Source: an uncultured Candidatus Saccharibacteria bacterium (GTDB lineage Bacteria > Patescibacteriota > Minisyncoccia > Phycocordibacterales > Phycocordibacteraceae). From it: 39,819 bases of DNA. The DNA is taken from the NCBI GenBank assembly GCA_964360855.1, contig CAYHXV010000004.1, forward strand, positions 1-39,819, written 5' to 3'. The translations under genes were made by a program, and so were the position numbers. Each line of letters begins with the position of its first letter. The stretch's first letter is position 1. The notes under the pieces are model-generated. The model did no database searches. It was not told the origin of the DNA and worked only from the letters and a program-made list of their open reading frames with translations. Positions 2,659 to 17,306 of the stretch are shown in pieces.

Positions 2659-2660
2659 GT

Positions 2661-2921: not shown

Positions 2922-2922
2922 T

Positions 2923-3702: not shown

Positions 3703-3771
3703 TGCACAGATACCCTATATAGGTAGCGGCGGGGAAGTGTGTGTGCGTGCTACTATTTTGATAAACCTTGT

Positions 3772-4755
3772 ATGAATCCCCGCTTTCGTACGCTTCAACT
3801 TGCTCTTGCTTCTTCCGTCGCGGTTGCGTTCATTGTGTGCTCGTATCTATTCTCGGGACCCTTCTCACTTCGCCCAAGTACGGTGGACGCCGCAACTGCA
3901 GAAACACTGTTGAAAGCCTATGCGGTAAAAGATGCAGATGCAGACGGTCTGCCTGATTGGCAAGAAGCGCTCTATGGTACTGATCCAGCTAATCCTGAGT
4001 CCGTACAAAAAGGAATGAGGGATGGGGATGCGGTTGCGCAGGGCTTGGTGAAGCCGAAGTTTGAAAGTGCACCAGCTACACCGACGAGTGCCGAGAGTAT
4101 TCCTGGCACACTACCCTCGGACGACTCAGTAACGGCACAGTTTTCACAGGAGTTTCTGAAAGCTTATATAGACGCCGGTGGTCAGACCATGAGCGCAAGT
4201 GAGCAACAGGTTTTGCTTTCGCGACTCATGCAGAGCTTCACTACCCGTGCAGAGAAGGTGGTGACATCCCCTTACACCGCACTTTCAATACATACCGACA
4301 CGAATGTGAGTGTATTGGCGTACGCAGGAGCGGTTGAAGCAATCATCGTTGCAAACGACTCACCAAAGGGAAGTCCGTTACCACTTGATCTAATGGATGC
4401 CTATATCAATAACGGAGACGCTGCAGCTGGAGTTCAGCTGGGCGCACTCGCAAAGAGATACGAAGTAATCAGCAAAGCTCTTCTTGCGCTGCGCGTGCCG
4501 CCTTCGGTTTCCACTTCTCATCTGTTGCTTCTGCAGTCTTTCGATTCGCTTGCTCGCGCAACGCGTCTCGCCGCTTCTTTTGAAAAAGATCCGGTGGCAG
4601 TACTCGGGGCACTGAGCATATATCAGCCCGCATCAACCGGTGTGGTGGAGGCATTTACGCAACTTGCAACCACGATTCTCTCGGGTGGGGAGCCCTCGAA
4701 AGGAGCGCCAGGTTTCATTATTGTGAATTTTGCTCGTAGCACACAGACGCAATGA
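3772..4755 (+). CDS. Membrane-anchored protein with a thrombospondin type-3-like Ca-binding repeat
   Basis: N-terminal TM helix then DADADGLPDWQEALYGTDP; start ATG 3772; TGcTACTAT at 3748-3756. Confidence 0.7.
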   Translation: MNPRFRTLQLALASSVAVAFIVCSYLFSGPFSLRPSTVDAATAETLLKAYAVKDADADGLPDWQEALYGTDPANPESVQKGMRDGDAVAQGLVKPKFESAPATPTSAESIPGTLPSDDSVTAQFSQEFLKAYIDAGGQTMSASEQQVLLSRLMQSFTTRAEKVVTSPYTALSIHTDTNVSVLAYAGAVEAIIVANDSPKGSPLPLDLMDAYINNGDAAAGVQLGALAKRYEVISKALLALRVPPSVSTSHLLLLQSFDSLARATRLAASFEKDPVAVLGALSIYQPASTGVVEAFTQLATTILSGGEPSKGAPGFIIVNFARSTQTQ

Positions 4756-6344
4756 CTTCCTTCTACTCACACTTCGTACGTTTCGTAGCTGGACTCCTTA
4801 CAGTGGCGATAGTTGCAGTTGGGGTGTACGTGCCAATGAATGCCTCTCGTGTGGAAGCGCAAGCGGTACTTAGTTTTGAAACTAATCCAGCGCTTCTTGG
4901 GGGTATTGCGGCGACAGCTATTGCTAGCGCCGATCAAACCCTTATTTCCAAAGTGTTAAACGCTCTCGCGTGGACTGTTGCAAAGGTCGCCATTCAGACC
5001 ATGACCAAGAGTATTGTGAGTTGGATCAATGGTGGGTTTGAGGGCTCTCCTGCGTTTGAAACTGACCTCCAAAACAGTCTCCGTCGTTTGGGGGACGGTG
5101 TGGCCCAAGGCTTTCTCTCCCAAATGGCCAATGAAGCAGCAATTCGATCACCGTTTAGCGATCAGCTCATAACGAATGTGGGTGCGGCATACTATTTGTA
5201 TAGTGGTCGAGAAGGACTCGCGTCTCGTCTTCGCTACACCCTAAACGAGTCTGCTGCAGACGATAGGGCATTTCTTGCGGGAGATTTTAGTCAGGGGGGG
5301 TGGAACGCGTGGTTCAGTGCATTTCAAAATCCCGCCAACAATCCCTTTGGGGCGCAGATGATCGCATCTCAAGAACTCTCTAATCGGATTTCTGCTGCTG
5401 CAGTGCAGCGTACCCAAGAACTCGGGTGGGGAAGTGGCTTCCTTTCGTGGAAGGGTGATTGTGTCGACAAAACTAATGGTTCGGCACACACCGGGAGTGG
5501 TGGTACCACGACCAACACTGCGCAGGGATCAGTATCTTCACAGAGCACTAGTGGCGTTGGTGGAACAAATACAGGAAGTGGGCTCTCCGAAGCAGAACGG
5601 GCTGCGCGTGCAGCCTCTACCCCCTCTACCCATACTCTTTCAGATGCTGAGGGATGTCTTGAACACGAAATTCAAACACCCGGTTCTGTTATCGAGGGTA
5701 CACTCATTCCGAACATAAACTCTCCCTTGCACCAGCTCGAGCTTGCAGACTCTATAAATGAGATTATTGGGGCTCTGGCGCAACAGTTAGTATCAAAAGT
5801 TATTGGTGGGGGAGGACTTCGCGGAGTATCAAACCCTGGCCAAGGAGGCGGGAAGTCGGCACTCGAACAAGCGTCAGATTCTTCCCAGTACTCTGGAAAT
5901 GTAAACAGTCTTCGAGGCGGCTTTGACCAGGGTGTTGCTAATTCGCGTGCCCAGACTGAAAGTTATCGCGCGTCGTGGCAAAAGATTGCTGATGCCGCTG
6001 CAGCAGCTAAGGCTGCTTGCGGCACAAGCTCTGAGACAATCCAAGCGGTACTCGATAGGTCCGCCAAAGCTCTCGCACGAGCGAGCGAAGCCCTCGCGGC
6101 ACTCGACCAAATACGAGGACGGTCTGCAGCTCTCAATACTGCGGGGGACGATCCTGCAACCGTACTAACCGGTATCTCTAACAGCTACCTTGATCTTCTT
6201 TCTAATGGCACGCTACCAAGTGCTGCCGAGTTGACCGAAGCTGCGGGAGAGAGTCAGGACACTGGCTCTGCCACTCCAGGCTCACTCTACAGCCAGATGA
6301 CTAGACTTTCTTCTGCTCGCTTGTGTGCATTCACCGGAAACTAG
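4752..6344 (+). CDS. Hypothetical secreted/membrane protein of the T4SS-like locus
   Basis: 530-aa ORF overlapping the previous stop (ATGA); signal peptide, hydrophobic helices, G/S/T-rich loop between two Cys, Ala-rich helical C-terminus. Confidence 0.75.
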   Translation: MTSFYSHFVRFVAGLLTVAIVAVGVYVPMNASRVEAQAVLSFETNPALLGGIAATAIASADQTLISKVLNALAWTVAKVAIQTMTKSIVSWINGGFEGSPAFETDLQNSLRRLGDGVAQGFLSQMANEAAIRSPFSDQLITNVGAAYYLYSGREGLASRLRYTLNESAADDRAFLAGDFSQGGWNAWFSAFQNPANNPFGAQMIASQELSNRISAAAVQRTQELGWGSGFLSWKGDCVDKTNGSAHTGSGGTTTNTAQGSVSSQSTSGVGGTNTGSGLSEAERAARAASTPSTHTLSDAEGCLEHEIQTPGSVIEGTLIPNINSPLHQLELADSINEIIGALAQQLVSKVIGGGGLRGVSNPGQGGGKSALEQASDSSQYSGNVNSLRGGFDQGVANSRAQTESYRASWQKIADAAAAAKAACGTSSETIQAVLDRSAKALARASEALAALDQIRGRSAALNTAGDDPATVLTGISNSYLDLLSNGTLPSAAELTEAAGESQDTGSATPGSLYSQMTRLSSARLCAFTGN

Positions 6345-6348
6345 CGCT

Positions 6349-8847
6349 ATGAAAAAGCTCCTGCGAGCATCGATTATAGTTTCGGGGCTTTCATTGGTGC
6401 TGTTTTTTGGTGTGGGGATGTCTGTTGGTTATGCACAGACGGCTAATGTGCCTCCTGCAGCAACGCCCACTGATACGGTAAGTCAGTTCGCTTCCAAGGT
6501 AAGTATTTTACTAACAAAAGACAAGGCAAGAATCCCTAACGTCGGGTTTGGTGCTAGTACAAATTTTACATATCAGGGTCTTGCTTGTTTCCGCCGCACT
6601 TCTGAATTGAGCCGTGGGGGAACGGCCACATATACGATATCGTGTACACAACAGCAGCCAAAACTGACAGCAACTTGTGAGGATACAACCGGTTTGCTTA
6701 ATACATGTCGTGTAACTGATGCTGCGGGCAATCCAGTTCAGGTGGGTGGTGAGGACACTTTTTCACCAAATCGTGTTGGTGAGGATGCCGTGATAGATGC
6801 AGCAACAGGACAACAGGTGGGTGAGGATACGGGGAGACCCATTTCAGACGATGCTAGTTGTTCGGGTAATTTCCTCTGTGCCTTAGGAAAACTTCCCGGC
6901 ATGCTCTTCGCTGGCCTCGGCTTCCTCCTCCTCACACTATCAGCGCTCATTCTGGGTATTGCCGGTACGGTCTTTAACTGGGTGGTGATACGCACGGTGT
7001 TTCAGTTTGCCCTATACTTCGGTACCTCTGCGGGTATGCTGGTTGCCTGGGGAGTGCTGCGAGACATTGCCAACATTGCGTTGTTATTCGGATTTATCTT
7101 TGTTGGCATAGCCACAATTTTGAATACCCAGAGTGTGGAGGGGTATACCGCAAAGAAAGCGCTGCCGCGACTCATCATCTTTGCCGTACTCCTTAACTTC
7201 AGTCTCTTTGCAACACAGGCGATTATTGATGTGGCCAATGGGTTTAGTTCGGTGTTTGCTGCGTATGCGGGACAGGAACAGTGCGATCAGGGTGTATCAA
7301 CCACTGGAAGTAGTGGGCAAAGTCAAGCTGCGTGTGCCAACCTCGGTATCTCAAGCAAAATCCTTGAGGCGGCGGGTATGCACAACATCAACCCCTTCAA
7401 GGTGGGGACACTTACCGCCCTTTCACAGGCATGGGAGCAACCCTACACCTATACCGTGATGCTCATCATGCTCTCCCTCATGGTTACCGTAACGGCCATG
7501 GTGCTCATTGCTGCCACCATTATGCTTGTGGTGCGGGTGGTGGTGCTCTCCCTCCTTATGGTTACTTCGCCCATAGGATTTGCGGGCATGGCTATTCCTT
7601 CGCTTAATAAGATTGCGCAGGACTGGTGGCACAAGCTCATCAATCAAGCGTTCTTCGCTCCTCTATTCCTGCTCATGATTTTTGTGAGCTTGAAGTTAGT
7701 GGAGGGACTCCAGTCTGGCGAGGCAACCATTGCAGACGCCATACTCGGAAATACGGGAAGTGGGGGAGGTACCACCGCGGGAAACATGCAGGTGGTGATG
7801 GTGTTTATGATTGTGATTGGGTTTATGATCGGCGCACTCATGATTGCGCAGAAGATGGGTGCGTATGGGGCGAGTTTTGCTACTAAGACTGCAGGGGGTA
7901 TTGCGTTTGGGGCGCATGGGTTTGTGGCAAGGAGGACGGTAGGGAGAGTTTCAGGAAAGATTGCTTCTAAACTTCGTGGTACTAAATTTGCGGAAGGTAA
8001 CTTCGGTCGCTTGGTGGTTGGTGCTGCAGATGCTGGCTCAAAAGCCAGCTACAGTACAAGAAACCTTGCTGGTGGCCTTCTCAAGGGAACAGGTGTTGAC
8101 GTAGGTAAGGCAAATAAGACTGCGGGACACGGGTATCATGGCATTGAGGAGAAGGCTGAGAAGGCGCGTCTGGATTATGCAAAGACTCTTCAGGACCGAA
8201 ACGAAACTGATGAAGAGTACAAAATACGCATGGCAGCTCTGAAACGCGACCACGAGCAAAACGCACGCGACTTGTCTAAATCTGAAGCTGCTGTTCCTGT
8301 GGCAGAGGAAGCAAAACGTGTGGTAAAAGAACTTCTGGCGACTCAAGAGTCTGAGTTGCGAAGGATGCAGACTATTGTTACTCAAAATCCTGGAAGTGCG
8401 GCCGCCCAGCGTGATCTCGTGGCAGCAGAGCAAAATGTTGCACGCACAAATGAGGACCTCACGCAGGCAGACAGGAACCTTGCCGATGCAACAAGGGCAC
8501 TAGCAAGCGCTCAAGAAACTCGCACCAAGCTTAGCAAAACGACAACAGATAAAATTACCGTTAAGGGGTCTGATCGTCAGAAAGCGTACGCTGAAAATAT
8601 TAAACACGAGGGTGATTTGGACTTTATAGGCCTTAAGGGGATTCGGGTCACTGCGGCCTCACATGGAAACCATGCTGCTGCTGCAAAAATACTTAAGGAC
8701 GCCAATAAGTCAGACCTTGATAAAGCGTTAGACGCCCTTAAGAAGGAAATGAAGGCAAAAGAAAAGGCCGAGGCGGCTGATGATCATAAGGAAGAGACTC
8801 CAAAAACCACGGCACGGGGTGGGGCTGCTGGCCCAACAATTCACTAA
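6349..8847 (+). CDS. VirB6/TrbL-like polytopic membrane protein
   Basis: Signal peptide, Cys-containing N-domain, multi-TM core (WGVLRDIANI..., LPRLIIFAVLLNFSLF, RVVVLSLLMVTSPIGF, WWHKLINQAFFAP), Gly-rich region and coiled-coil tail; start ATG 6349. Confidence 0.7.
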   Translation: MKKLLRASIIVSGLSLVLFFGVGMSVGYAQTANVPPAATPTDTVSQFASKVSILLTKDKARIPNVGFGASTNFTYQGLACFRRTSELSRGGTATYTISCTQQQPKLTATCEDTTGLLNTCRVTDAAGNPVQVGGEDTFSPNRVGEDAVIDAATGQQVGEDTGRPISDDASCSGNFLCALGKLPGMLFAGLGFLLLTLSALILGIAGTVFNWVVIRTVFQFALYFGTSAGMLVAWGVLRDIANIALLFGFIFVGIATILNTQSVEGYTAKKALPRLIIFAVLLNFSLFATQAIIDVANGFSSVFAAYAGQEQCDQGVSTTGSSGQSQAACANLGISSKILEAAGMHNINPFKVGTLTALSQAWEQPYTYTVMLIMLSLMVTVTAMVLIAATIMLVVRVVVLSLLMVTSPIGFAGMAIPSLNKIAQDWWHKLINQAFFAPLFLLMIFVSLKLVEGLQSGEATIADAILGNTGSGGGTTAGNMQVVMVFMIVIGFMIGALMIAQKMGAYGASFATKTAGGIAFGAHGFVARRTVGRVSGKIASKLRGTKFAEGNFGRLVVGAADAGSKASYSTRNLAGGLLKGTGVDVGKANKTAGHGYHGIEEKAEKARLDYAKTLQDRNETDEEYKIRMAALKRDHEQNARDLSKSEAAVPVAEEAKRVVKELLATQESELRRMQTIVTQNPGSAAAQRDLVAAEQNVARTNEDLTQADRNLADATRALASAQETRTKLSKTTTDKITVKGSDRQKAYAENIKHEGDLDFIGLKGIRVTAASHGNHAAAAKILKDANKSDLDKALDALKKEMKAKEKAEAADDHKEETPKTTARGGAAGPTIH

Positions 8848-8856
8848 CCTGATAAT

Positions 8857-9591
8857 ATGTCGAATATGGAACTGAATGCCCAGCCCTCGAATGACTTATC
8901 TGTAGACGAGGCAGTCGCAACCCTCCTCAGCGAACTCCCAAAACCCGTACAGGACTTTGTCACGGGGCCCGAACGCGCACGCATAGCACTTTCTCTCTCT
9001 CAAAAGTATCAACTCCACGTGGACCAGGCAGGGGCATTTGAAGTAGCCTATATGCACATGCTCCTTGGTATTTCTTCCCCTGAAGAATTCGTAGATTCAC
9101 TCACTAAGGCAGGGATCTCTTCCGAAGCCGTGCGCGGCCTCGCAAACGATGTGAACGAACAGGTATTTGTACCTCTTCGGAAAGCTGAGCAAGCGCCACC
9201 GGCACCCGTTATAGCTACTCCTCCTCCCGCACCAGCAGCACCCATTCTTCCAGGAAGCACTGAGCCCGTACCTCAACAGGTGGTTCCTCCTCCCATGCAT
9301 CACTATCCCGTCCCCGCAGCACCTCTGCCACACACGCTCATATATCCGCCTTATGCAGTACCGTACGGCACACCCATGTACATGATGCCCGTGCATCATC
9401 CGCAACAGTGGGTGGCTCCCCCTGTAGCAGCACCACTTCCTGAACAACCAGCACCCCCCATCCAACCGAGCACACCGACTCCGGTACCGTCGATACCAGA
9501 GACCATACCAAGCGCTCCACCCATGCCGCAACCAACCCCAATCCAAAAAGAATACTCTGCAGACCCGTACCGAGAACCTTTTACTCAGTAG
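8857..9591 (+). CDS. Hypothetical cytoplasmic protein with Pro-rich linker and C-terminal DPYREP motif
   Basis: About 110-aa helical N-domain, long Pro-rich tract, ends YSADPYREPFTQ. Confidence 0.75.
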   Translation: MSNMELNAQPSNDLSVDEAVATLLSELPKPVQDFVTGPERARIALSLSQKYQLHVDQAGAFEVAYMHMLLGISSPEEFVDSLTKAGISSEAVRGLANDVNEQVFVPLRKAEQAPPAPVIATPPPAPAAPILPGSTEPVPQQVVPPPMHHYPVPAAPLPHTLIYPPYAVPYGTPMYMMPVHHPQQWVAPPVAAPLPEQPAPPIQPSTPTPVPSIPETIPSAPPMPQPTPIQKEYSADPYREPFTQ

Positions 9592-9633
9592 AGTATTCCG
9601 TGTGCACGGATACATCAGGTATACTGAACAGTA

Positions 9634-10050
9634 ATGGAGTACCAAGTACCGCAGTTCATTGAAGTGGAGGACAAGATCTTTGGTCCTTTCACCTTGAAAC
9701 AGTTTATATATGTTGCTGGTGGGGTGGGGCTCTGTGCGGTGCTCGTGCTCTATCTTCCCCCGGTCATCGGTATTATTCTCGCTATTCCTGTTGCAGCGTT
9801 TTCAGCAGCGCTTGCGTTCTACAAGGTGAACAACAAAAGCTTTGTTGATATGTTGGAGAGTGGCTTCAGGTACTACACCACCGAACGTCTCTATCTGTGG
9901 AAGAAAGATTCTAAGAATGTCTCTGCAAGTGCTCCCGTAGTTCAAGCTCCAGAGCGGGTAGCACCATCAACCATCACGCGCAGTCGTCTCCACGATCTTG
10001 CGTGGTCGCTCGACGTGAAAGACACCATGAATAAGCAAGACGACTCATAA
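9634..10050 (+). CDS. PrgI family protein (VirB3-like)
   Basis: YQVPQFIEVEDKIFGPFTLKQF followed by two TM helices; upstream of VirB4-like genes. Confidence 0.85.
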   Translation: MEYQVPQFIEVEDKIFGPFTLKQFIYVAGGVGLCAVLVLYLPPVIGIILAIPVAAFSAALAFYKVNNKSFVDMLESGFRYYTTERLYLWKKDSKNVSASAPVVQAPERVAPSTITRSRLHDLAWSLDVKDTMNKQDDS

Positions 10051-10051
10051 C

Positions 10052-10678
10052 ATGGCACAAACAAAAGCAACACAGTCCTTTGTGCCCGTGAAAGAAGTTC
10101 GTAACGGGGTGATTATCCTGAAAGATGGGGGGTATAGGGGTGTGCTCATGTGCTCCTCAATTAACTTTGCGCTGAAGTCTGAAGACGAGCAGCGCGCTAT
10201 TGTGGGAGGATTTCAGAACTTTCTAAATACGCTCGACTTCTCGGTGGAGATAGTAGTGCATTCACGCAAAATGGATATTAGGCCCTATCTAGCGCTCTTA
10301 TCTGAGCGTATGGAAGCACAAACGAGTGAACTCATGCGGCTGCAGTTGCGCGAGTACATTCAGTTCATCCGTGGCTTCATGGATTCCACGAGTATCATGA
10401 CGAAGATTTTCTACATTGTGGTGCCATACACTCCGGGACTCGGTACGGGGGTGAGTAGCGCGGTTTCTTTTTTGAAACACAAAGATCCCACGAAGCTAGA
10501 CCAAGCCGCTTCTTCGTTCGAGGACGACCGCGTGCAGCTTGAGCAGCGTATGGCGCTTGCGGCAGGGGGACTCGCGTCCTCGGGACTACGTGCCATTCCG
10601 CTTGGCACCGAGGAGATTATTGAACTGCTGTATCGCTCATTCAACTTGAGCGAGCTCGAGAGCCCTATTCGTCTATAA
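10052..10678 (+). CDS. TraC/VirB4 N-terminal-like protein
   Basis: SINFALKSEDEQ...FLNTLDFSVEIVVHSRKMD...FYIVVP...EIIELLY resembles the non-ATPase N-region of Gram-positive VirB4s; sits between PrgI and the ATPase. Confidence 0.65.
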   Translation: MAQTKATQSFVPVKEVRNGVIILKDGGYRGVLMCSSINFALKSEDEQRAIVGGFQNFLNTLDFSVEIVVHSRKMDIRPYLALLSERMEAQTSELMRLQLREYIQFIRGFMDSTSIMTKIFYIVVPYTPGLGTGVSSAVSFLKHKDPTKLDQAASSFEDDRVQLEQRMALAAGGLASSGLRAIPLGTEEIIELLYRSFNLSELESPIRL

Positions 10679-10681
10679 CGT

Positions 10682-12502
10682 ATGGCACTACTTGATTTTC
10701 TTGGACGAAATAAGGATGCGGCACCTGCAATAACGCCTGTATTACCTGCCGATATCTATGCAGAGGGTGCGCTTGATCTGGCGGACGCCATAGCGCCAGC
10801 CGCCCTCAAGGTGGGGGCACGGGAGATAGAGCTTGGCGAGAAGTTTTCTCGTACTTTCTACACCATTTCCTATCCACGCTTTTTGGCCGATGGCTGGTTC
10901 ACGCCCGTAATAAACCTGGACAAGGTCTTTGATGTGGCTATATTTGTGCATCCGGTGGATACGGGGGCGGCACTGCGCAGTTTCCAGAGAAAGGTTGCCG
11001 AAGTGGAAAGCCAAATAGAGGATAGAGCAGACAAGGGACTGGTGCGGGACCCAATGCTTGACACCGCGTTTCAAGACTTGGAGACACTTCGTGACCAACT
11101 CCAGCAAGCAGAGGAACACCTCTTTGATGTGGGGTTGTACATCACCATATACGGAAACTCAAAAGAGGAGCTCGATAAGCTGGAAGGGGAGTTGCGTGGC
11201 ATTCTTGACGCGAAGCTTATATACACCAAGCCGGCACTCTTCCAGCAAGAGCAGGGATTCCGCTCAACCTTGCCGCTTGCACTCGACCAGCTTGAGGTAC
11301 ACAGCAAGCTGAACTCATCTCCCTTGTCTTCCATTTTCCCCTTTGTCTCCTTTGACCTCACCAGTGACTCCGGCATTTTGTATGGCATAAACAGACACAA
11401 TGCGTCCCTCATTCTCTTTGATCGGTTCTCGATGGAGAACTACAACTCGGTGGTTTTCGCTAAGTCAGGTTCGGGAAAGAGTTATGCCGTTAAATTAGAA
11501 ATACTTCGTTCCCTCATGTTTGGGACTGAAGTGATTGTGATAGACCCCGAACGTGAATACGAAGACCTCGCAAGCGCCACCGGAGGCCGTACCTTCAACA
11601 TCTCTCTTTCGAGTGAGCACCACATCAACCCTTTTGACCTACCCCCGGTTAAGGAAGACGAGGAGCCGGCAGATATCTTGCGTTCAAACATCATTAACTT
11701 GGTGGGACTCTTCCGTATCATGCTCGGGGGTCTCTCTCCTGAAGAGGACGCCATTATTGATAGGGCAGTCACGGAAACGTACGCCCTTAAGGACATCACC
11801 GGAGACAATGACTTCACCGGAGTAGAACCACCGCTTCTCTCAGACTTTGAGCAAGTGCTCTCAGGAATGGAAGGTTCGCAGTCTCTGGTTACTCGGTTGT
11901 CTAAGTACACGCACGGCACCTGGTCTGGATTCTTGAACCAGCCCACCAACATCGACATAAACAAGCAGTTTGTCGTGTTCTCCGTGCGCGATATGGAGGA
12001 CGAGTTGAAGCCAATCGCGATGTATATCATCACGCACTATATATGGAACGCGGTACGTCATGAACTCAAGAAACGCCTTCTCGTGATAGACGAGGCGTGG
12101 TGGATGATGAAGTCCGAAGACACGGCGTCTTTCTTGTACAGTCTTGCCAAGCGTGGCCGCAAATACTATCTCGGTCTTGCAACCATTACTCAGGACGTTG
12201 AGGACTTCTTGAAGAGCCCATACGGCAGACCAATTCTCACCAACTCTTCTATTCAACTTCTCTTGAAGCAGTCTCCGACAACTATTAACGTGCTGCAGGA
12301 AACCTTTAATCTAACGGATGAGGAGAAGTTCTTGCTCCTTGAGTCCGGGGTGGGGGAGGGGCTCTTCTTTGCGGGACTAAAGCATGTGGCAATCAAGATT
12401 GTGGCTTCATATACTGAGGATCAAATCATTACCTCAGACCCTTCCCAGCTCCTCGCCATTAAACAGGAGAAGAATAGGTTGGAGGAGGAAGCAGCCAAAT
12501 AA
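10682..12502 (+). CDS. virB4: VirB4-like T4SS ATPase
   Basis: AKSGSGKS Walker A, VIDPEREY, INPFD, VIDEAW Walker B, KRGRKY, TQDVEDF, GEGL. Confidence 0.9.
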   Translation: MALLDFLGRNKDAAPAITPVLPADIYAEGALDLADAIAPAALKVGAREIELGEKFSRTFYTISYPRFLADGWFTPVINLDKVFDVAIFVHPVDTGAALRSFQRKVAEVESQIEDRADKGLVRDPMLDTAFQDLETLRDQLQQAEEHLFDVGLYITIYGNSKEELDKLEGELRGILDAKLIYTKPALFQQEQGFRSTLPLALDQLEVHSKLNSSPLSSIFPFVSFDLTSDSGILYGINRHNASLILFDRFSMENYNSVVFAKSGSGKSYAVKLEILRSLMFGTEVIVIDPEREYEDLASATGGRTFNISLSSEHHINPFDLPPVKEDEEPADILRSNIINLVGLFRIMLGGLSPEEDAIIDRAVTETYALKDITGDNDFTGVEPPLLSDFEQVLSGMEGSQSLVTRLSKYTHGTWSGFLNQPTNIDINKQFVVFSVRDMEDELKPIAMYIITHYIWNAVRHELKKRLLVIDEAWWMMKSEDTASFLYSLAKRGRKYYLGLATITQDVEDFLKSPYGRPILTNSSIQLLLKQSPTTINVLQETFNLTDEEKFLLLESGVGEGLFFAGLKHVAIKIVASYTEDQIITSDPSQLLAIKQEKNRLEEEAAK

Positions 12503-12505
12503 AGT

Positions 12506-12931
12506 ATGGGGGAGCGGGAACGCATATCCACCGTCACAGCAGCATTTATTATTGCGATTGCACTGATTCTTGACCTTGTTCAGTTTTTGTTAGTACTAAC
12601 GGTTGTTGGTTCGGTTGTGTCAGTAATCATTGGCCTATTGGCAGGGTTTGGGCTGTGGCTAGCATTTGCACTTCATGGAGTTAAGTACTCCGGTACCGGT
12701 GCACTCAAGAAGGCTGGAGCGACGTTCGGCACGATGTTTGCAGAAATGGTGCCTTTTTTGGACGTACTTCCACTCATTACCATTGGTGCTGTTCTTATTA
12801 TTCGACAGACACGAAAGGAGGATAAGGCAGCGAGACAGAAGGCAAGGGCGGATTTACTCGCACAACAGCAAGCGCAGTATGCACAGACACAAGAAATGCA
12901 GGCAAGTGTTGCGCAGCAAGAGGCTGCGTAA
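12506..12931 (+). CDS. Hypothetical membrane protein
   Basis: 3-4 hydrophobic segments, EMVPFLDVLP, Gln/Ala-rich tail; 3 nt after the virB4 stop. Confidence 0.7.
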   Translation: MGERERISTVTAAFIIAIALILDLVQFLLVLTVVGSVVSVIIGLLAGFGLWLAFALHGVKYSGTGALKKAGATFGTMFAEMVPFLDVLPLITIGAVLIIRQTRKEDKAARQKARADLLAQQQAQYAQTQEMQASVAQQEAA

Positions 12932-12980
12932 TCCCTAGTAGCGATACAGCACTCCTGTGTTGAGGCGGTATACTGTGCGT

Positions 12981-13961
12981 ATGTTGAAGATAAGTATGAT
13001 GGTGGCTGCACTCTTGTTTGCGCTTCCTGTGGCTGCACAGTACTCCACACAAGACGAGCCTGTTTCGTTTATTCTAACCCCGAGTTATCCGCGTCCGTAT
13101 CAGAGCGTAACAGTAAGTCCACGGAGCTCTCTAATTGATCTCACCGCAAGCACCGTTACCATTTCCGTGAACGGGGTTGCCGTTCAAAAGGGAACCGGGA
13201 CCCAAGCAGCCACGGTTACGGTGGGTGGGGTGGGGGAGACCACCAAGATCACCGTATCGGTGAAGGGGCCTGATGGAAAAACGTATACGACCAGCACCTC
13301 GGTGCGCCCGGCAGACGTCTCGCTCGTGGTTGAACCAAACACCACCGTACATCCGCTCTATCAGGGTCTGCCTCTGGTTGCGAGCGAGGGGAGTGTGCGT
13401 TTGGTGGCAATTGCCGATCTACGCACCAGCATCAATAAGCCCATTGATCCCTCGACACTAGTGTACCAGTGGAAGCTTGGCTCTAAGATTCTTACCAGTG
13501 CCTCGGGTATTGGTCGCTCGGTCTTGGTGGCTACTGCTCCCATTCGCTACCGGGACGCCGATATTACCCTTACCGTATCTACTCCCGACTCAGGGATAGT
13601 GGCTGAAGCCAAAACAAGAATTAGCCCCGTAGACCCACTGGTGCGCATCTACTCCTTTGACCCCCTCTTGGGTCCTGATTATGACCACGCCATCGGTGCG
13701 TCCTTCTCGCTCCTCACCACTGAAGCATCATTTCGTGCGGTACCATATTTCTTTGCTGCTCCTCCCACCATTGAGTGGAGTGTGAGCGGCACCGCTCAGA
13801 ATGCACAGAAGGATATTACCGTGCGCTCCACTGGGAACGGGCAGGGAAGTGCCTCGCTTGAGGCACGGGCGAAGCTAGCGAGCAATTTACAAACTGCAAG
13901 CAGCCGGACGCTACTCAGATTCGGTGAGGGGACATCCCCGTTTAGTCTATTTGGCTTCTAA
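12981..13961 (+). CDS. Secreted beta-rich (Ig-like repeats) protein
   Basis: Signal peptide ending VAA-Q; T/V/S-rich beta strands, YQWK and IEWSV Ig/PKD-like segments; TATACT 6 nt upstream of ATG 12981. Confidence 0.7.
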   Translation: MLKISMMVAALLFALPVAAQYSTQDEPVSFILTPSYPRPYQSVTVSPRSSLIDLTASTVTISVNGVAVQKGTGTQAATVTVGGVGETTKITVSVKGPDGKTYTTSTSVRPADVSLVVEPNTTVHPLYQGLPLVASEGSVRLVAIADLRTSINKPIDPSTLVYQWKLGSKILTSASGIGRSVLVATAPIRYRDADITLTVSTPDSGIVAEAKTRISPVDPLVRIYSFDPLLGPDYDHAIGASFSLLTTEASFRAVPYFFAAPPTIEWSVSGTAQNAQKDITVRSTGNGQGSASLEARAKLASNLQTASSRTLLRFGEGTSPFSLFGF

Positions 13962-13962
13962 T

Positions 13963-14883
13963 ATGAAACGACTTCTCTATTCACTACTCCTCGTTGCGAT
14001 TCTGGTACCGCAAGTGTCTCTTGCCGCAGGCACGTCAACTACTCCTACCACTCCCCAAGTACAGGCACCCACCTCACTCGGCTTCGTGCCCCTCACCAGT
14101 ATTCCGGGAATTGAGTCTGCAGGAAACTCAGCAACCCTCCCGGACTTTTTAAATAACCTGTACAAGCTCGCTATTGGAGTTGCTGCGGTGCTCGCGGTAC
14201 TGCAGATTGTTCGAGCGGGCATTATGTACATGGGCGGGGACTCTGTGTGGGAAAAGAAAGAAGCAAAAAGTCTCATCGCCCTTTCTGTTGGCGGATTGAT
14301 TCTGATATTATCTCCGGTGATTGTGTTTTCACTTATCAATCCGAAGATACTGGAATTAAAGATTGATGGGTTAGATACGCTTGGAGACACTCGTTTTGGA
14401 AAAGACGATACAACACCGCCTGTGGATACGGCAACCGATCAACAATTGGCGGGGTATATCCAGTTGAAAGCCGAGTCGCTGCCAGCTGGCAAGTCGTGCA
14501 AAGATATCCTCGGGATTGATTGGGAAAATGTTCCCACCACTCCACTGGGAAGTACTATAAACACCTGCGCCCTACTTCCCGCGGGACAGACCTGCTGTGG
14601 GCGATTGCGTCAATCACCAACGGCGCCGGTTCTTTCTGATGGTACTATCACTTTTTACACTGCCGAGGAAAGTACAGACCTTGCAAAGCTTGGTTCTCCA
14701 AGGTGTCTCTTGTACAAAAAGCCAACATTTAGCTCTGTAAACTTATGTTCGAGTGCGCTGCTAAGTGCTACCGCCAACAGTAACGTGGTGCTCATTGAAA
14801 ACTGTTCAGGATTCAGGCCATCACTCACTTCGCAAACACCGGTGTGGAAAGATATAAAGGATCTGCCGACATGTTCACAATAG
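13963..14883 (+). CDS. VirB2/TrbC-like pilin-domain protein with Cys-rich C-terminal extension
   Basis: Signal peptide; FLNNLYKLAIGVAAVLAVLQIVRAGIMYM...EAKSLIALSVGGLILILSPVIVFSLINP pilin hairpin; 8 Cys downstream. Confidence 0.8.
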   Translation: MKRLLYSLLLVAILVPQVSLAAGTSTTPTTPQVQAPTSLGFVPLTSIPGIESAGNSATLPDFLNNLYKLAIGVAAVLAVLQIVRAGIMYMGGDSVWEKKEAKSLIALSVGGLILILSPVIVFSLINPKILELKIDGLDTLGDTRFGKDDTTPPVDTATDQQLAGYIQLKAESLPAGKSCKDILGIDWENVPTTPLGSTINTCALLPAGQTCCGRLRQSPTAPVLSDGTITFYTAEESTDLAKLGSPRCLLYKKPTFSSVNLCSSALLSATANSNVVLIENCSGFRPSLTSQTPVWKDIKDLPTCSQ

Positions 14884-14889
14884 AATTGT

Positions 14890-16089
14890 ATGTCTAAAAA
14901 AGTACTCATTATCATAGCCAGCATCATCGTCCTCCTCGGACTTTTGGTCGGTGTCTACTTCTTTTTCTTCAGTGGTAAGCCTGGCGTCACAACGACCGCC
15001 CCCTCCTTCACGGCAGCAGGGGACCGAGAACCCATAGCAAACACTGTCTCGGGACCCGTTGAGGGTGCGGGCACTGTGGTGGCTCCGCACTTGGTGCGCA
15101 TCACTGCGGGACCAGTGGCAAAGGGTGCGGTGGCACTAGTGGTGATTCCGCAAGCCATTGGCTCTTCAACACCCGGACTCGGAGACACGGAGGTGCGCTA
15201 CGTTGAGCGACAAAGCGGGAACGTCTATTCATTCCTCCTGCATGACCGCGTTCTTACCCGTATCGGAAACAAAACACTGCCTGGAGTGCAGGAGGCAGTC
15301 TGGCTTCCGGATGGCTCCAGTGTCTTTGCGCGCTTCATAACGAGCGAAGAGGGGGTAGAGCGGGTCGCCACATACTCACTCCCTTCAGGAGGAGGGGAAG
15401 GTTTCTTCCTTGAATCTGGTCTATCCTCCGTTGGGATCACGGCGTCCTCGAGCCTGTACACCCTCATCTCTCGAGGCTCGGGTTCAGTGGCAAGCATTGC
15501 AAACGCAAACGGCACCGGTGCACGTACACTGTTTTCTTCACCCCTGCAGTCCCTTACGTTGCGTTCGTTTGGTACTGATTTTATTGCCACCACCAAAGCA
15601 TCTTCTGAAATAAGTGGGTATGCGTTCCTGGTCTCCGGAAAGACCGGTGGGTTTAGTCGCGTGCTCGGACCCTTCACCGGACTTTCAACACTTCCAAACC
15701 CCTCCGGGAAATTGGTGCTCTATAGCTACACCTCTCGAGGCAAGGTATTTACCGCAGTCCTCGATGTTCAAAAGCACACCGCCACACAACTACCCGTTAC
15801 CACGCTTGCCGAAAAATGTGCCTGGGCGCCAAATGGCACCTCGCTATACTGTGGCGTACCCACCGCACTTCCGAAAGACCTGCCTGATAGCTGGTATCAG
15901 GGGACGCACGCATTTTCCGATCGGTTGTGGAAGGTTGATTTGCATACCCGGCTCGCCACGCTCGTGAACGACCCGAGTACGGTGGCAAGTATCACCATCG
16001 ACATGGTATCCCTCACCGTTGATCCTGCAGAAGACGCCGTTATCTTTACAAACAAATCAGACGGCTCACTTTGGGCGTATGATTTCTAA
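14890..16089 (+). CDS. Membrane-anchored beta-propeller-like protein
   Basis: N-terminal TM; repeats resembling TolB/WD-type blades (AVWLPDGSSV, LPNPSGKLVLY, CAWAPNGTSLYC). Confidence 0.7.
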   Translation: MSKKVLIIIASIIVLLGLLVGVYFFFFSGKPGVTTTAPSFTAAGDREPIANTVSGPVEGAGTVVAPHLVRITAGPVAKGAVALVVIPQAIGSSTPGLGDTEVRYVERQSGNVYSFLLHDRVLTRIGNKTLPGVQEAVWLPDGSSVFARFITSEEGVERVATYSLPSGGGEGFFLESGLSSVGITASSSLYTLISRGSGSVASIANANGTGARTLFSSPLQSLTLRSFGTDFIATTKASSEISGYAFLVSGKTGGFSRVLGPFTGLSTLPNPSGKLVLYSYTSRGKVFTAVLDVQKHTATQLPVTTLAEKCAWAPNGTSLYCGVPTALPKDLPDSWYQGTHAFSDRLWKVDLHTRLATLVNDPSTVASITIDMVSLTVDPAEDAVIFTNKSDGSLWAYDF

Positions 16090-16820
16090 ACGATAACTGT
16101 TGGTGTCTTGGTTTGCATTGAACGTCGTACGAAATACTCCTGCACAATACCAAACAGGTTGCTGGTGATGAAGTATATAGCAATTGCTCCTGACGCGTAC
16201 GCGATCGCTGCCATTATAACCGGAAAGACGTACCTCATTTGGAGCGTCATGGCGCGTGATATGTCTGCCTGCATACTCTTGTCCTCAGAAGACTTCGGGG
16301 GTGCGGGGATGGCATAGAGGGCGAGCAGGTATTGGGTGATGCCCGCAATAAGGGCGAGGACCACACTGGTGCTCGTTATAGTGATGAGGCCAAGGAATAC
16401 GGGGGAGATGGTTGCGGGCACTGCAACGAATGAATAGAGAATAGAAGGATCCACCGTGAGGAGTGTTTTGTTATAGAAGACCCAGTACAGGGTAATGATG
16501 ATGGGGAGTTGAATGAGTATAGTGAGAATACTCGCAAAAGGATTGATGCCGTATTTCTTGTAGAGCGCCATCATGGCACGGGCCTGTTCCTCTTTGTTGT
16601 CTTTGAGTGTATCGCGAATTACTTTCAACTCGGGCTCGATATTCTTCATTGCGCGCGCGGTCTTTTGTGCCGCAAACGAGAGCGGCATGATGATGAGACG
16701 AATAATGATCGTCACCAGCACCACCGCAAGACCTATGTCCGCACCGGGAAGTTTGTCCACGAGCAAAATGAGGAGGTTGTATATCGGCACATAGAGCACC
16801 GTGTGAAAGAAAGCCATCAT
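16086..16820 (-). CDS. yidC: Membrane protein insertase YidC (short form, no large periplasmic domain)
   Basis: TIIIRLIIMPL, LYKKYGINPF, LIQLPI, AIYFITSNLF..QEY; rpmH-rnpA-yidC synteny. Confidence 0.92.
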   Translation of the reverse strand: MMAFFHTVLYVPIYNLLILLVDKLPGADIGLAVVLVTIIIRLIIMPLSFAAQKTARAMKNIEPELKVIRDTLKDNKEEQARAMMALYKKYGINPFASILTILIQLPIIITLYWVFYNKTLLTVDPSILYSFVAVPATISPVFLGLITITSTSVVLALIAGITQYLLALYAIPAPPKSSEDKSMQADISRAMTLQMRYVFPVIMAAIAYASGAIAIYFITSNLFGIVQEYFVRRSMQTKTPTVIV

Positions 16821-16831
16821 GTGGATAGAGT

Positions 16832-17158
16832 CTAGCTTATTTGTGCCGGTCCGAGAAGTTTGGTGAGGAGTTCAGAGAGTTCGGTATTGAGTACCGCATA
16901 GGGAAGGGAGGGACTTCCTGAGCGAGCGTACACCACGATTGTCTTGTCAGATGCGCACCACGGCCGAAGTACGGCCAAAATACGACGTTTGAGACGATGT
17001 CTCCCCACTGAGGTCTTTTCGGTCTTTTTTGATATAACGGCACCGGCACCGGACTGTCCCAATCGAATAGATACAGAGAAATGAGGGCTTACCGCTCTCA
17101 TTTCCTTCCCGGTATGGGTGGCCTTGCCCCTCTGAAGCCGCATTCGGCGAGGAAGCAT
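16832..17158 (-). CDS. rnpA: Ribonuclease P protein component
   Basis: MLPRRMRL, VISKK..SVGRHRLKRR (RNR-motif variant); position between rpmH and yidC. Confidence 0.85.
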   Translation of the reverse strand: MLPRRMRLQRGKATHTGKEMRAVSPHFSVSIRLGQSGAGAVISKKTEKTSVGRHRLKRRILAVLRPWCASDKTIVVYARSGSPSLPYAVLNTELSELLTKLLGPAQIS

Positions 17159-17168
17159 AAGAAAAAGC

Positions 17169-17306
17169 CTAGACGGTCAGCTTGGCGCGGCCCTTGCGAC
17201 GACGTGCAAGAAGAACCCGACGGCCGTTGGCCGTAGCTGAGCGGGCACGGAACCCGTGGGTACGGGCGCGCTTTCGCTTTTTTGGCTGATAGGTGCGCTT
17301 TGGCAT
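17169..17306 (-). CDS. rpmH: 50S ribosomal protein L34
   Basis: Below the ORF-track cutoff; hand translation [45 protein letters not shown]. Confidence 0.97.

What the first reader, a model, noticed from the sequence alone, without database searches (positions are those of the whole stretch)
3772..16089. Origin-adjacent, apparently non-conjugative T4SS-like envelope machine with six uncharacterised subunits
Seen: 11 tightly packed same-strand genes between housekeeping rsmA and yidC, ending about 2.7 kb from oriC. They include PrgI, VirB4 parts, a VirB6-like protein and a VirB2-like pilin; no relaxase, VirD4, integrase or att repeat is visible in the window. Internal -10 boxes (3751, 9620, 12969) match the host promoter style and divide the locus into three modules. 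Known: PrgI-VirB4-VirB6 is the core of Gram-positive-type conjugation systems, and a T4SS-like locus has been reported in Saccharibacteria. Inference: a domesticated, vertically inherited secretion/attachment apparatus for an episymbiotic lifestyle, whose six non-canonical members (TSP3-repeat, 530-aa, Pro-rich, small TM, Ig-like, propeller) are undescribed components. Best candidate for a new system here.
Basis: partly seen in the sequence, partly recalled or inferred. Interest (0 to 1): 0.8.

Follow-up and report, generated by a model that had tools for sequence, protein, structure and literature searches.

The report
Known Patescibacteria chromosomal type IV secretion locus
This is the relaxase-free type IV secretion and pilus gene cluster that ultra-small Patescibacteria carry beside their replication origin; papers from 2023 to 2025 already describe it, so this is a well-preserved example rather than a new system.

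Summary
Eleven tightly packed + strand genes (3772-16089) lie between rsmA and yidC/rnpA/rpmH/dnaA. They encode PrgI/VirB3, a two-ORF VirB4 (TrsD-like N-domain plus ATPase), a VirB6-like protein and a VirB2-like pilin.

The reading "domesticated, vertically inherited, non-conjugative" is supported:
- No relaxase was found in the four Pfam families searched, and there is no att repeat or nearby tRNA.
- The whole block is collinear in dozens of Paceibacteria genomes.
- VirB4 distances track DnaA/DnaN/YidC distances (Mantel r 0.90), and VirB4 evolves more slowly than DnaA.

It is not a new system. Wang et al. 2023 and Quinonero-Coronel et al. 2025 describe this T4SS clade, its missing relaxase, its TrsD, pilins and position beside dnaA/ksgA/rnpA. 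This scan has also reached the same verdict on other genomes.

What I add:
- Three conserved leaderless-type promoters split the locus into g1-4, g5-8 and g9-11.
- One subclade has broken the locus exactly between g4 and g5.
- g11 is a confident membrane-anchored beta-propeller, and its family lies just downstream of VirB4 in other classes too.
- g9 is Ig-like and limited in range.
- g2, g4 and g8 remain without a fold or family.
- Seven more pilin genes and a T4CP-like gene lie on other contigs.

The parts
3751..3756 (+). -10-like hexamer TACTAT (context TGcTACTAT) 15 nt before the g1 ATG; promoter of unit 1
   Evidence: Sequence read. A TAnnnT hexamer (at least 5 of 6 matches to TATAAT) lies within 20 nt of the start in 13 of 26 relatives, against 0 of 32 for g2 and 2 of 47 for g3. 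Function is inferred.
3772..4755 (+). g1: 327-aa protein with an N-terminal TM/signal segment, one TSP3-type Ca-binding repeat (DxDxDG...W) and a C-terminal domain of unknown fold
   Evidence: TSP3_bac scores 16.7 bits, below cut-off, in the window copy and 27.1 and 31.2 bits, above the 25 cut-off, in 2 of 2 orthologues scanned. Hydrophobic N-terminus. A profile search of PDB gave only Ca-binding-loop matches. Present in 26 of 80 related loci by tblastn; many of the others are truncated or rearranged.
4752..6344 (+). g2: 530-aa secreted or bitopic, mostly helical protein of a Patescibacteria-only family; function unknown (weak VirB5/TraI-like lead)
   Evidence: No Pfam, NCBIfam or PHROG hit. 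The AF2 model is poor (pLDDT 60.6, all-helical). Foldseek against PDB gave 0 matches at E<=0.001. Atlas neighbours are Minisyncoccota hypothetical clusters. The 100 homologues have no functional name; 2 of them carry an N-terminal DUF4141 motif (33.7 and 27.1 bits against a cut-off of 30).
6349..8847 (+). g3: extended VirB6-like polytopic membrane protein (Cys-rich N-terminal exodomain, multi-TM core, long charged C-terminal tail)
   Evidence: TM-like segments at 183-513. 6 of 40 orthologues match TrbL/VirB6 PF04610 (best E 1.9e-7) and 1 matches TrbL_4; the window copy matches nothing. The ORF opens at GTG 6325; ATG 6349 fits the signal-like N-terminus.
8857..9591 (+). g4: 244-aa protein without TM or signal segment; conserved ~110-aa N-domain, Pro-rich linker and invariant C-terminal DPYRE(P) motif
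   Evidence: In the alignment of 30 sequences, D236, P237, Y238 and E240 are invariant and R239 is at least 90% conserved. The motif occurs once in the genome's ORFs. No family or PDB match. Homologues have no informative source name.
9620..9625 (+). -10 hexamer TATACT (gGTATACT) 8 nt before the g5 ATG; promoter of unit 2, leaderless-type
   Evidence: Sequence read. A -10-like hexamer lies within 20 nt upstream of the g5 start in 55 of 72 relatives, mostly 6-8 nt away. A subclade has broken the locus exactly here.
9634..10050 (+). g5: PrgI/VirB3-like membrane protein
   Evidence: PF12666 PrgI, 40.8 bits against a cut-off of 27. Found in 73 of 80 related loci at 41-67% identity.
10052..10678 (+). 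g6: TrsD-like protein, the separately encoded N-terminal domain of VirB4
   Evidence: NCBIfam VirB4_plasma positions 102-233 (E 6.9e-8), CD1110 positions 2-102, TrsD E 5.5e-4; all are below the whole-protein cut-offs. Found in 77 of 80 loci at 42-74% identity.
10682..12502 (+). g7: VirB4 ATPase (MPF_FATA-like, CD1110 type)
   Evidence: NCBIfam conju_CD1110 373.8 bits against a cut-off of 325. P-loop_TraG 90.3 bits. 73-90% identical in the 80 best related loci. Found in 191 of 201 sampled Patescibacteria genomes at E<=1e-20.
12506..12931 (+). g8: 141-aa polytopic membrane protein with a charged tail; variable slot
   Evidence: TM-like segments. Conserved E-x-I-P...N-x-L-P motif in the 15-sequence alignment. 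53 of 72 loci have a small ORF with at least 2 TM segments between VirB4 and g9, and 19 have none. No family hit.
12969..12974 (+). -10 hexamer TATACT (gGTATACT) 6 nt before ATG 12981; promoter of unit 3, leaderless-type
   Evidence: Sequence read. A -10-like hexamer lies within 20 nt upstream of the g9 start in 39 of 73 relatives, with the mode at 6 nt.
12981..13961 (+). g9: secreted protein of tandem Ig-like domains
   Evidence: Profile of 69 sequences against PDB: Hoc (Ig-like domains) E 4e-5. Cadherin-like at 21.5 bits, below cut-off. Found in 73 of 80 related loci. Only 7 of 201 genomes of the phylum sample match at E<=1e-8, and 4 of those are partial.
13963..14883 (+). g10: VirB2-like pilin hairpin (residues ~52-125) with a ~170-aa Cys-rich C-terminal domain of unknown fold
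   Evidence: T4SS_pilin and TrbC hits. 44 of 49 orthologues match T4SS_pilin and 17 of 49 match TrbC; no hydrolase or other recurrent domain appears. The C-terminal parts are not alignable between species.
14890..16089 (+). g11: membrane-anchored beta-propeller (TM helix 3-27, linker, propeller), TolB-like by sequence
   Evidence: AF2 model: pLDDT 91.8, pTM 0.83. Foldseek against PDB returns propellers, including TolB 4pwz at E 4.5e-9, with TM 0.42-0.56. Profile against PDB gives TolB at E 5.6e-4. The family has 2784 clusters at E<=1e-30. It lies within 12 kb downstream of VirB4 on the same strand in 25 of 40 other genomes with a strong match.

Best explanation
The locus is the Paceibacteria version of the chromosomal Patescibacteria-clade type IV secretion system, a derivative of monoderm MPF_FATA conjugation machinery that no longer serves conjugation.

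Shown:
- It encodes VirB3/PrgI (g5), a VirB4 ATPase split into a TrsD-like N-domain (g6) and the ATPase (g7), an extended VirB6-like membrane protein (g3) and a VirB2-like pilin (g10).
- It is fixed between rsmA and yidC-rnpA-rpmH/dnaA and inherited with the chromosome.
- VirB4 is under tighter constraint than DnaA.

Inferred from conserved -10 elements and from a natural break point: the locus is transcribed as three units with very short or no leaders (g1-g4, g5-g8, g9-g11).

Inferred from the roles of the homologous families and from published work on Saccharibacteria: VirB4, docked on VirB3 and VirB6, drives assembly of VirB2-type pilins (8 genes in this genome) into a surface pilus or conduit. 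This episymbiont uses that structure to contact its host cell and move macromolecules.

The exported proteins g9 (Ig-like), the C-terminal domain of g10 and g11 (membrane-anchored beta-propeller) most likely form the wall-crossing or host-contact part. g1, g2, g4 and g8 are conserved neighbours whose roles are open.
For: Core families: with scores given under parts.

No conjugation or mobility signs:
- 0 matches in the own genome (94% complete) to Relaxase PF03432, Mob_Pre PF01076, TrwC PF08751 and Rep_trans PF02486.
- One tyrosine recombinase, on another contig.
- No tRNA within 15 kb. Only short imperfect direct repeats.
- GC content is like that of the flanks.

Vertical inheritance:
- tblastn of 19 window proteins on the 80 best VirB4 loci shows uvrD-rsmA-g1..g11-yidC-rnpA-dnaA-dnaN collinear in all 11 loci printed in detail (L016, L019 and L024 show only the g5..dnaN part), down to loci with about 50% DnaA identity.
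- In 54 taxa (53 of 80 loci with all five genes more than 85% covered, plus the window), g6+g7 distances correlate with DnaA+DnaN+YidC distances: Mantel r 0.896, with 0 of 999 permutations as high.
- FastTree trees share 32 of 51 splits, against a mean of 0.23 and a maximum of 2 in 200 label shuffles.

Constraint: mean pairwise p-distance is 0.223 for VirB4, 0.403 for DnaA, 0.578 for DnaN and 0.562 for YidC.

Phylum range: VirB4 is found in 191 of 201 sampled genomes.

Transcription units:
- -10 hexamers are conserved before g5 (55 of 72), g9 (39 of 73) and g1 (13 of 26). The other genes give g2 0 of 32, g3 2 of 47, g4 5 of 33, g6 14 of 75, g7 11 of 78, g8 2 of 17, g10 8 of 55 and g11 17 of 64.
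- 4 of the 5 GTATACT sites in the window lie 6-9 nt before a start codon.
- In 3 of 3 genomes examined from the subclade that lacks g1-g4 upstream of g5, uvrD-rsmA-g1-g2-g3-g4 sits elsewhere as a block.

Literature:
- Essential T4SS with pilins and without relaxase in Southlakia (PMC10633639, passages read).
- Survey of 3,035 genomes (PMC12102498, sections 12-14 read).
- Tubular structures interpreted as possible T4SS pili in a cultivated member of the lineage (bioRxiv 10.64898/2026.06.21.733656, passages read).
Against: - Function is not tested here; no RNA or protein data exist for this organism.
- The window's own g3 matches no VirB6 model, and g10 as a protein is below Pfam's cut-off.
- Only four relaxase families were searched. 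MOBC, MOBM, MOBH and others were not, and the genome is 94% complete in 37 contigs.
- A T4CP-like ATPase exists on contig C3 (TrwB_AAD_bind 34.4 bits, TraG-D_C 27.7, T4SS-DNA_transf 23.3, all above cut-off), so DNA handling cannot be excluded.
- The tree comparison uses genes linked in one region and FastTree supports. 5 of 25 strongly supported VirB4 splits conflict with strongly supported housekeeping splits; most are small or local groupings.
- Promoter counts depend on my heuristic start-codon choice.
- Membership of g1, g2, g4, g8, g9 and g11 in the machine rests on gene order alone.
Confidence: 0.88

Rival explanations
1. The machine imports nucleic acid rather than exporting protein or building an adhesive pilus. 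It would be a T4SS-derived uptake system, functionally like the archaeal Ced system or Helicobacter ComB, feeding an organism that cannot make nucleotides.
For: - VirB4 gives a weak partial match to the archaeal DNA-import ATPase CedB (41.1 bits, far below the 700-bit cut-off).
- The genome keeps a T4CP-like DNA-binding-type ATPase on C3.
- A 2026 preprint reports host RNA use by a cultivated member of the lineage and possible T4SS pili at the contact site (bioRxiv 10.64898/2026.06.21.733656, passages read).
Against: - No evidence here on the direction of transport.
- The T4CP-like gene is unlinked. The 2025 survey says its homologue was not essential in Southlakia while the T4SS genes were (PMC12102498, section 13).
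- The CedB match covers only about 70 residues of the P-loop region.
Confidence: 0.15
2. Only g3, g5, g6, g7 and g10 belong to the T4SS. The six unassigned genes (g1, g2, g4, g8, g9, g11) are unrelated envelope or cytoplasmic proteins that share a conserved origin-proximal gene order.
For: - rsmA and uvrD, which are plainly unrelated to secretion, keep the same adjacency to g1-g4 even after the rearrangement, so conserved order alone proves little.
- The g8 slot is empty in 19 of 72 loci.
- g9 is not found beyond the order except as partial domain matches.
- None of the six matches a T4SS family by its own sequence.
Against: - g11-family genes lie within 12 kb downstream of VirB4 on the same strand in 25 of 40 other genomes with a strong match. 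21 of these are in other classes, where the surrounding housekeeping order differs according to the 2025 survey (PMC12102498, section 14).
- g9, g10 and g11 share one conserved promoter.
- g1, g2 and g4 share a unit with the VirB6-like gene.
Confidence: 0.25
3. The locus is an integrated conjugative element, or a decayed remnant of one, that happens to lie near the origin.
For: The core genes derive from MPF_FATA conjugation systems. A ParE/RHH toxin-antitoxin pair, typical of mobile DNA, lies 0.85 kb upstream at 2413-2921.
Against: - No relaxase in four families, no integrase in the window, no att-like repeats and no adjacent tRNA.
- The block is collinear with core genes in dozens of species and co-diverges with them.
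- VirB4 is more conserved than DnaA.
- The toxin-antitoxin pair is absent from the related loci: RHH in 0 of 80, ParE in 1 of 80 as a weak match. It is therefore a separate local insertion.
Confidence: 0.02

Closest known systems
Patescibacteria-clade T4SS as surveyed by Quinonero-Coronel et al. 2025 (Microb Genom, PMC12102498), Paceibacteria arrangement
   Same: VirB4 with a separate TrsD-like ORF, PrgI/VirB3, VirB6-like gene, VirB2-like pilin, no relaxase, T4CP-like gene far from virB4, and position beside dnaA, dnaN, rnpA, ksgA (rsmA) and rpmH.
   Different: Nothing essential differs. The main text I read does not mention a propeller, TolB, PD40 or DUF4141 (term search). It shows unassigned neighbours only as grey genes. 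Its supplementary tables, which I could not open, may list them.
T4SS of Candidatus Southlakia epibionticum ML1, a 14-gene cluster (Wang et al. 2023, Cell, PMC10633639)
   Same: Chromosomal, Gram-positive-like subunit set with pilins, no recognisable relaxase, low locus-tag numbers (origin-proximal). Shown by Tn-seq to be essential for growth on the host.
   Different: It belongs to a different class (Saccharimonadia). It has a pilin array inside the cluster and peptidase/lysozyme genes downstream of virB4. Here the five-gene pilin array and a pilin with a weak lysozyme-like match are on another contig, and no hydrolase is recognisable in the window.
Monoderm conjugative MPF_FATA systems (pCF10 Prg/Pcf, pGO1 Trs, CTn2 CD1110-type)
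   Same: VirB4 of CD1110 type, PrgI, TrsD and VirB6-like proteins. No outer-membrane core.
   Different: No relaxase or linked coupling protein and no PrgB-type adhesin. VirB2-like pilins are present. The locus is fixed in the core chromosome and evolves more slowly than DnaA.
TolB (Tol-Pal system) and other PD40/WD-type beta-propellers, for g11 only
   Same: Beta-propeller fold (Foldseek E 1e-8 to 1e-10). The best sequence-profile matches are TolB propellers (E 5.6e-4).
   Different: g11 has an N-terminal membrane anchor and lacks the TolB N-domain. The host is a monoderm with no Tol-Pal context. Identity is 11-17%.

Membership tests
Patescibacteria-clade chromosomal T4SS | VirB4 ATPase related to MPF_FATA VirB4 | tested here: met
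   NCBIfam conju_CD1110 373.8 bits against a cut-off of 325. Homologues at 46% identity or more among the matches listed for 191 of 201 sampled Patescibacteria genomes. Placement inside the published monophyletic clade was not tested with a reference tree.
Patescibacteria-clade chromosomal T4SS | TrsD-like ORF next to virB4 | tested here: met
   g6 matches VirB4 N-terminal model positions and TrsD weakly. It lies 3 nt upstream of g7 and is present in 77 of 80 loci.
Patescibacteria-clade chromosomal T4SS | VirB3/PrgI homologue near virB4 | tested here: met
   PF12666, 40.8 bits against a cut-off of 27.
Patescibacteria-clade chromosomal T4SS | VirB6-like polytopic protein | tested here: inconclusive
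   The window copy matches no model. 6 of 40 orthologues match TrbL/VirB6 (best E 1.9e-7), so the assignment is by transitive homology.
Patescibacteria-clade chromosomal T4SS | VirB2-like pilin gene(s) | tested here: met
   g10 scores 27.5 bits against a cut-off of 26.6 in the six-frame search, and 7 further pilin genes lie on contig C1. 44 of 49 g10 orthologues match T4SS_pilin.
Patescibacteria-clade chromosomal T4SS | No relaxase associated | tested here: met
   0 matches to PF03432, PF01076, PF08751 and PF02486 in the 94%-complete genome. Other MOB classes were not searched.
Patescibacteria-clade chromosomal T4SS | Chromosomal position near dnaA/dnaN/rnpA/ksgA/rpmH | tested here: met
   Conserved in relatives.
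Integrative conjugative element / conjugative MPF_FATA T4SS | Relaxase and linked type IV coupling protein | tested here: not met
   No relaxase found. The only T4CP-like gene is on another contig.
Integrative conjugative element / conjugative MPF_FATA T4SS | Integrase and att repeats, patchy distribution | tested here: not met
   No integrase in the window. No att-like repeats or adjacent tRNA. Collinear in relatives.
TolB / Tol-Pal system (for g11) | Beta-propeller domain | tested here: met
   AF2 pLDDT 91.8. Foldseek matches to propellers including TolB.
TolB / Tol-Pal system (for g11) | TolB N-terminal alpha/beta domain and periplasmic Tol-Pal partners | tested here: not met
   The model has a TM helix and a linker before the propeller, with no N-domain. 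The profile match covers only the propeller part of TolB. Tol-Pal genes were not searched for.
VirB5 / Bacteroidetes TraI (DUF4141) (for g2) | Match to the family model | tested here: not met
   The own genome gives 0 matches to PF13605 at E<=1, and the phylum sample gives 0 of 201. Only 2 of 100 homologues carry the motif, one of them above cut-off. This remains a lead only.

The most novel reading that the evidence does not exclude
The membrane-anchored beta-propeller g11 is a core subunit of the Patescibacteria T4SS across classes that the papers I read do not name. Together with the co-transcribed Ig-like protein (g9) and the pilin carrying a variable Cys-rich head (g10), it would form the extracellular wall-crossing or host-contact module. 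That module would take the place of VirB8/VirB9/VirB10 or of Gram-positive adhesins. The secreted helical g2, next to VirB6, may be a VirB5/TraI-like pilus-base or tip protein.
Probability: 0.35. Interest if true: 0.55.

Novelty: new member of a known kind. Interest (0 to 1): 0.3.

Why it matters
The Patescibacteria T4SS is thought to be central to how a very large group of ultra-small, host-dependent bacteria live. It is essential in the one species tested, and its substrate and architecture are unknown. This locus adds no new system. It is, however, a clean and complete Paceibacteria example with very deep comparative support.

Three points give concrete handles for structural and genetic work:
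- the split into three conserved leaderless transcription units;
- VirB4 being more conserved than DnaA;
- the cross-class linkage of a beta-propeller gene to virB4.

They help decide which unnamed proteins belong to the machine.

Tried and rejected
- **Complex prediction** of g4 (partner) with g6 and g7: no verdict, score 0.00, controls not run. It says nothing either way.
- **g2 structure**: the AF2 model is poor (pLDDT 60.6). Foldseek against PDB gave 0 matches at E<=0.001, the PDB profile search gave only coiled-coil noise, and the Atlas gave only hypothetical clusters.
- **DUF4141 lead for g2**: not found in the own genome or in 0 of 201 phylum genomes.
- **g10 C-terminal domain**: the Atlas has no model and no usable hit. 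No hydrolase domain appears in 49 orthologues. BLASTP against the two long pilins of contig C1 aligns only the pilin hairpin. An earlier-scan lead that such pilins carry wall-cutting enzymes is therefore not borne out for g10. One C1 pilin has a weak SLT_3 match (E 0.0019, below cut-off).
- **g4 and g1 profiles against PDB**: nothing beyond Ca-binding loops for g1.
- **g3 profile against PDB**: only low-complexity matches.
- **PHROGs**: nothing useful.
- **Generic promoter/terminator scan**: fewer sites than in shuffles, and none of the three boxes listed.
- **DnaA boxes**: no enrichment. Repeats in the two candidate oriC intergenic regions are unremarkable.
- **Sequencing runs**: no RNA holder listed. 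DNA holders with at least half of the words are 4 groundwater metagenome runs in 2 studies.
- **Place look-up of earlier notes** near this window: nothing.

Full report
**What is there.** The window is contig C4 of a 638-kb, 37-contig genome that is 94% complete. Related records are named Paceibacterota, Kaiserbacteria or Parcubacteria MAGs. Near-identical DNA occurs in groundwater metagenomes. Between rsmA (2878-3702) and the divergent yidC-rnpA-rpmH block (16086-17306, minus strand), which is followed by dnaA and dnaN, lie 11 + strand ORFs with gaps of -20 to +42 nt.

**Family assignments.**
- g5 is PrgI/VirB3 (40.8 bits against 27).
- g7 is a VirB4 of the CD1110 type (373.8 bits against 325). 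It aligns only to model positions 184-733 of 752. g6 matches the missing N-terminal part and, weakly, TrsD. The pair is therefore the two-ORF VirB4 already described for these bacteria.
- g10 is a VirB2-like pilin hairpin with a C-terminal extension. 44 of 49 orthologues match T4SS_pilin.
- g3 has about ten hydrophobic segments and a long charged tail but no hit of its own. 6 of 40 orthologues match TrbL/VirB6.

**Is it mobile?** I found no sign of it.
- The genome gave no match to four relaxase families.
- There is one tyrosine recombinase, on another contig.
- No tRNA lies near the locus, and there are no flanking repeats beyond short imperfect words.
- Composition shows no step.
- A soluble T4CP-like ATPase does exist on contig C3, unlinked, as the 2025 survey reports for most Patescibacteria.

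**Inheritance.** A scan of one genome per species with VirB4 found 524 relatives among 583 candidates; the best 80 loci are 73-90% identical.
- tblastn of 19 window proteins on those loci shows the full order uvrD-rsmA-g1..g11-yidC-rnpA-dnaA-dnaN in all 11 loci I printed in detail (L016, L019 and L024 show only the g5..dnaN part). This holds down to loci where DnaA is only about 50% identical.
- For the 53 of 80 loci with g6, g7, DnaA, DnaN and YidC all more than 85% covered, plus the window, VirB4-pair distances track housekeeping distances (Mantel r 0.896, 0 of 999 permutations as high).
- VirB4 is the slowest of the five: mean p-distance 0.223, against 0.403 for DnaA, 0.578 for DnaN and 0.562 for YidC.
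- FastTree trees share 32 of 51 splits, against 0.23 on average for shuffled labels. 20 of 25 well-supported VirB4 splits recur in the housekeeping tree. 5 conflict, mostly in small or local groupings.
- These genes are linked, so the test shows co-divergence of the region with the origin region rather than with the whole genome.
- Across the phylum, 191 of 201 sampled genomes have VirB4 at E<=1e-20.

**Transcription units.** A generic sigma-70 scan does not list them.
- In relatives, a TATAAT-like hexamer, typically gGTATACT, lies within 20 nt (mostly 6-8 nt) before the start of g5 in 55 of 72 loci and of g9 in 39 of 73. A TGnTAnnAT form lies before g1 in 13 of 26.
- The other genes give 0 of 32 (g2), 2 of 47 (g3), 5 of 33 (g4), 14 of 75 (g6), 11 of 78 (g7), 2 of 17 (g8), 8 of 55 (g10) and 17 of 64 (g11). 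Start codons there are my heuristic choice, and loci with under 45 nt upstream were left out.
- In the window, 4 of the 5 GTATACT words lie 6-9 nt before a start codon; the fifth is upstream of dnaA.
- A natural experiment agrees. In a subclade (L016-L033 and L045, apart from L022), g5 is preceded by housekeeping genes. The block uvrD-rsmA-g1-g2-g3-g4 sits elsewhere in the same genomes: the VirB6-like gene was found in 5 of 5 genomes searched, and the full block in 3 of 3 regions fetched. The break is exactly at the g4/g5 junction.

**The six unassigned genes.**
- *g11.* It folds with high confidence (pLDDT 91.8) into a TM helix plus beta-propeller. Foldseek returns propellers, including TolB. 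The sequence profile's best PDB matches are TolB propellers (E 5.6e-4). The family is large, with 2784 clusters at E<=1e-30. In the phylum sample, 40 genomes other than the window's have a match at E<=1e-18. By my reading of the place tables:
  - 25 of these have the gene within 12 kb downstream of VirB4 on the same strand. 21 of the 25 are outside the window's class.
  - 8 have it on another contig of a fragmented assembly.
  - 5 have it on the same contig but farther away or on the opposite strand.
  - 1 has no VirB4 match, and for 1 the VirB4 place was not listed.
- *g9.* It is Ig-like (Hoc, E 4e-5). It is present in 73 of 80 related loci, but only 7 of 201 phylum genomes match at E<=1e-8, and 4 of those are partial matches inside larger proteins.
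- *g8.* It occupies a slot that holds a small polytopic ORF in 53 of 72 loci and is empty in 19.
- *g1.* It has a Ca-binding TSP3 repeat and nothing else recognisable.
- *g2.* It is a secreted or bitopic helical protein found only in this phylum. Two of 100 homologues carry the short DUF4141 motif just after the signal peptide. According to tables in PMC10434189 (passages read), this motif marks a gene beside traJ/traG in Bacteroides conjugative transposons. That is a weak hint of a VirB5/TraI-like role, and it failed on the window copy and on the phylum sample.
- *g4.* It has no export signal and ends in an invariant DPYRE(P) motif that occurs only once in the genome's ORFs.

**Parts outside the window.** Seven more T4SS_pilin genes lie on contig C1: five small ones in tandem and two long ones.

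**Comparison with what is known.**
- Wang et al. 2023 (PMC10633639, passages read) found an essential T4SS gene cluster with pilins and without relaxase or coupling protein in Southlakia.
- Quinonero-Coronel et al. 2025 (PMC12102498, abstract and sections 12-14 read) found VirB4 in 2,417 of 3,035 Patescibacteria genomes, forming a clade within MPF_FATA. They report TrsD, VirB3, VirB6 and VirB2-like genes nearby, relaxases in only 103 genomes, and frequent proximity to dnaA, dnaN, rnpA, ksgA and rpmH, notably in Paceibacteria.
- A 2025 review repeats this (PMC12857230, passages read).
- Earlier notes of this scan reached the same verdict on at least 17 other genomes and had already remarked on a propeller gene in such loci. 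My cross-class count is a test of that remark, not independent discovery.
- The main text of the 2025 survey contains none of the words propeller, TolB, PD40 or DUF4141.

**Verdict.** This is a real, complete and well-conserved member of a known kind. The mechanism stated (a VirB4-driven pilus or conduit for host contact and transfer) is inferred from homology and from work on another class; nothing here tests it. The tallies include one unpublished genome (G159); no statement depends on it.

Noticed in passing
window 2413-2921: An RHH antitoxin-like ORF (81 aa) and a ParE-family toxin ORF (86 aa, 25.2 bits against a cut-off of 23) sit between uvrD and rsmA. Among the 80 related loci, tblastn finds the RHH in 0 and ParE in 1 (30% identity). 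The pair therefore looks like a recent local insertion. The ParE ORF overlaps the annotated rsmA ORF start, so rsmA probably starts near 2923.
   Followed up: partly
genome contig C3, L003:874-2589: A 571-aa soluble ATPase with no TM segment matches TrwB_AAD_bind, TraG-D_C and T4SS-DNA_transf above cut-off. It is a T4CP-like protein unlinked to the T4SS locus, and it has a long charged, Pro-rich C-terminal tail.
   Followed up: partly
genome contig C1, 64860-67363 and 78839-80771 (minus strand): Seven further VirB2-like pilin genes. Two are long (316 and 334 aa), flanking a 182-aa TM protein. Five are small and tandem (79-173 aa), lying directly downstream of a solute-binding-protein gene (SBP_bac_1). 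The 334-aa pilin has a weak lysozyme-like SLT_3 match (E 0.0019, below cut-off).
   Followed up: partly
window 17379-17385, 36602-36608 (minus strand), 37715-37721: The same gGTATACT word occurs upstream of dnaA, and 6 and 9 nt before the start codons of ORFs 36116-36595 (minus strand) and 37731-38831. This suggests that very short or absent leaders are the organism's common promoter style.
   Followed up: partly
related loci L039, L050, L055, L058, L060, L062, L069 and others: Where the small membrane gene g8 is missing, VirB4 is followed directly by g9 and is 40-80 residues longer at its C-terminus (639-692 aa against about 606).
   Followed up: no
window 8857-9591 (g4), residues 236-241: The C-terminal peptide DPYREP is invariant across 30 orthologues, although the Pro-rich region before it varies freely. 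This is the pattern expected of a docking or recognition peptide.
   Followed up: partly
related loci L016-L033, L045; L090-L092: A subclade has moved uvrD-rsmA-g1-g4 away from g5-g11-yidC-dnaA (about 40 kb apart on one contig in one genome). TIM, PGK, RecJ, RNase H, ComEC and an M50 peptidase now lie upstream of PrgI.
   Followed up: yes
window 1-39819: Cumulative GC skew rises almost steadily across the window and does not turn at the rpmH/dnaA region. E. coli-type DnaA boxes are at chance level. The replication origin is therefore placed only by gene order.
   Followed up: partly
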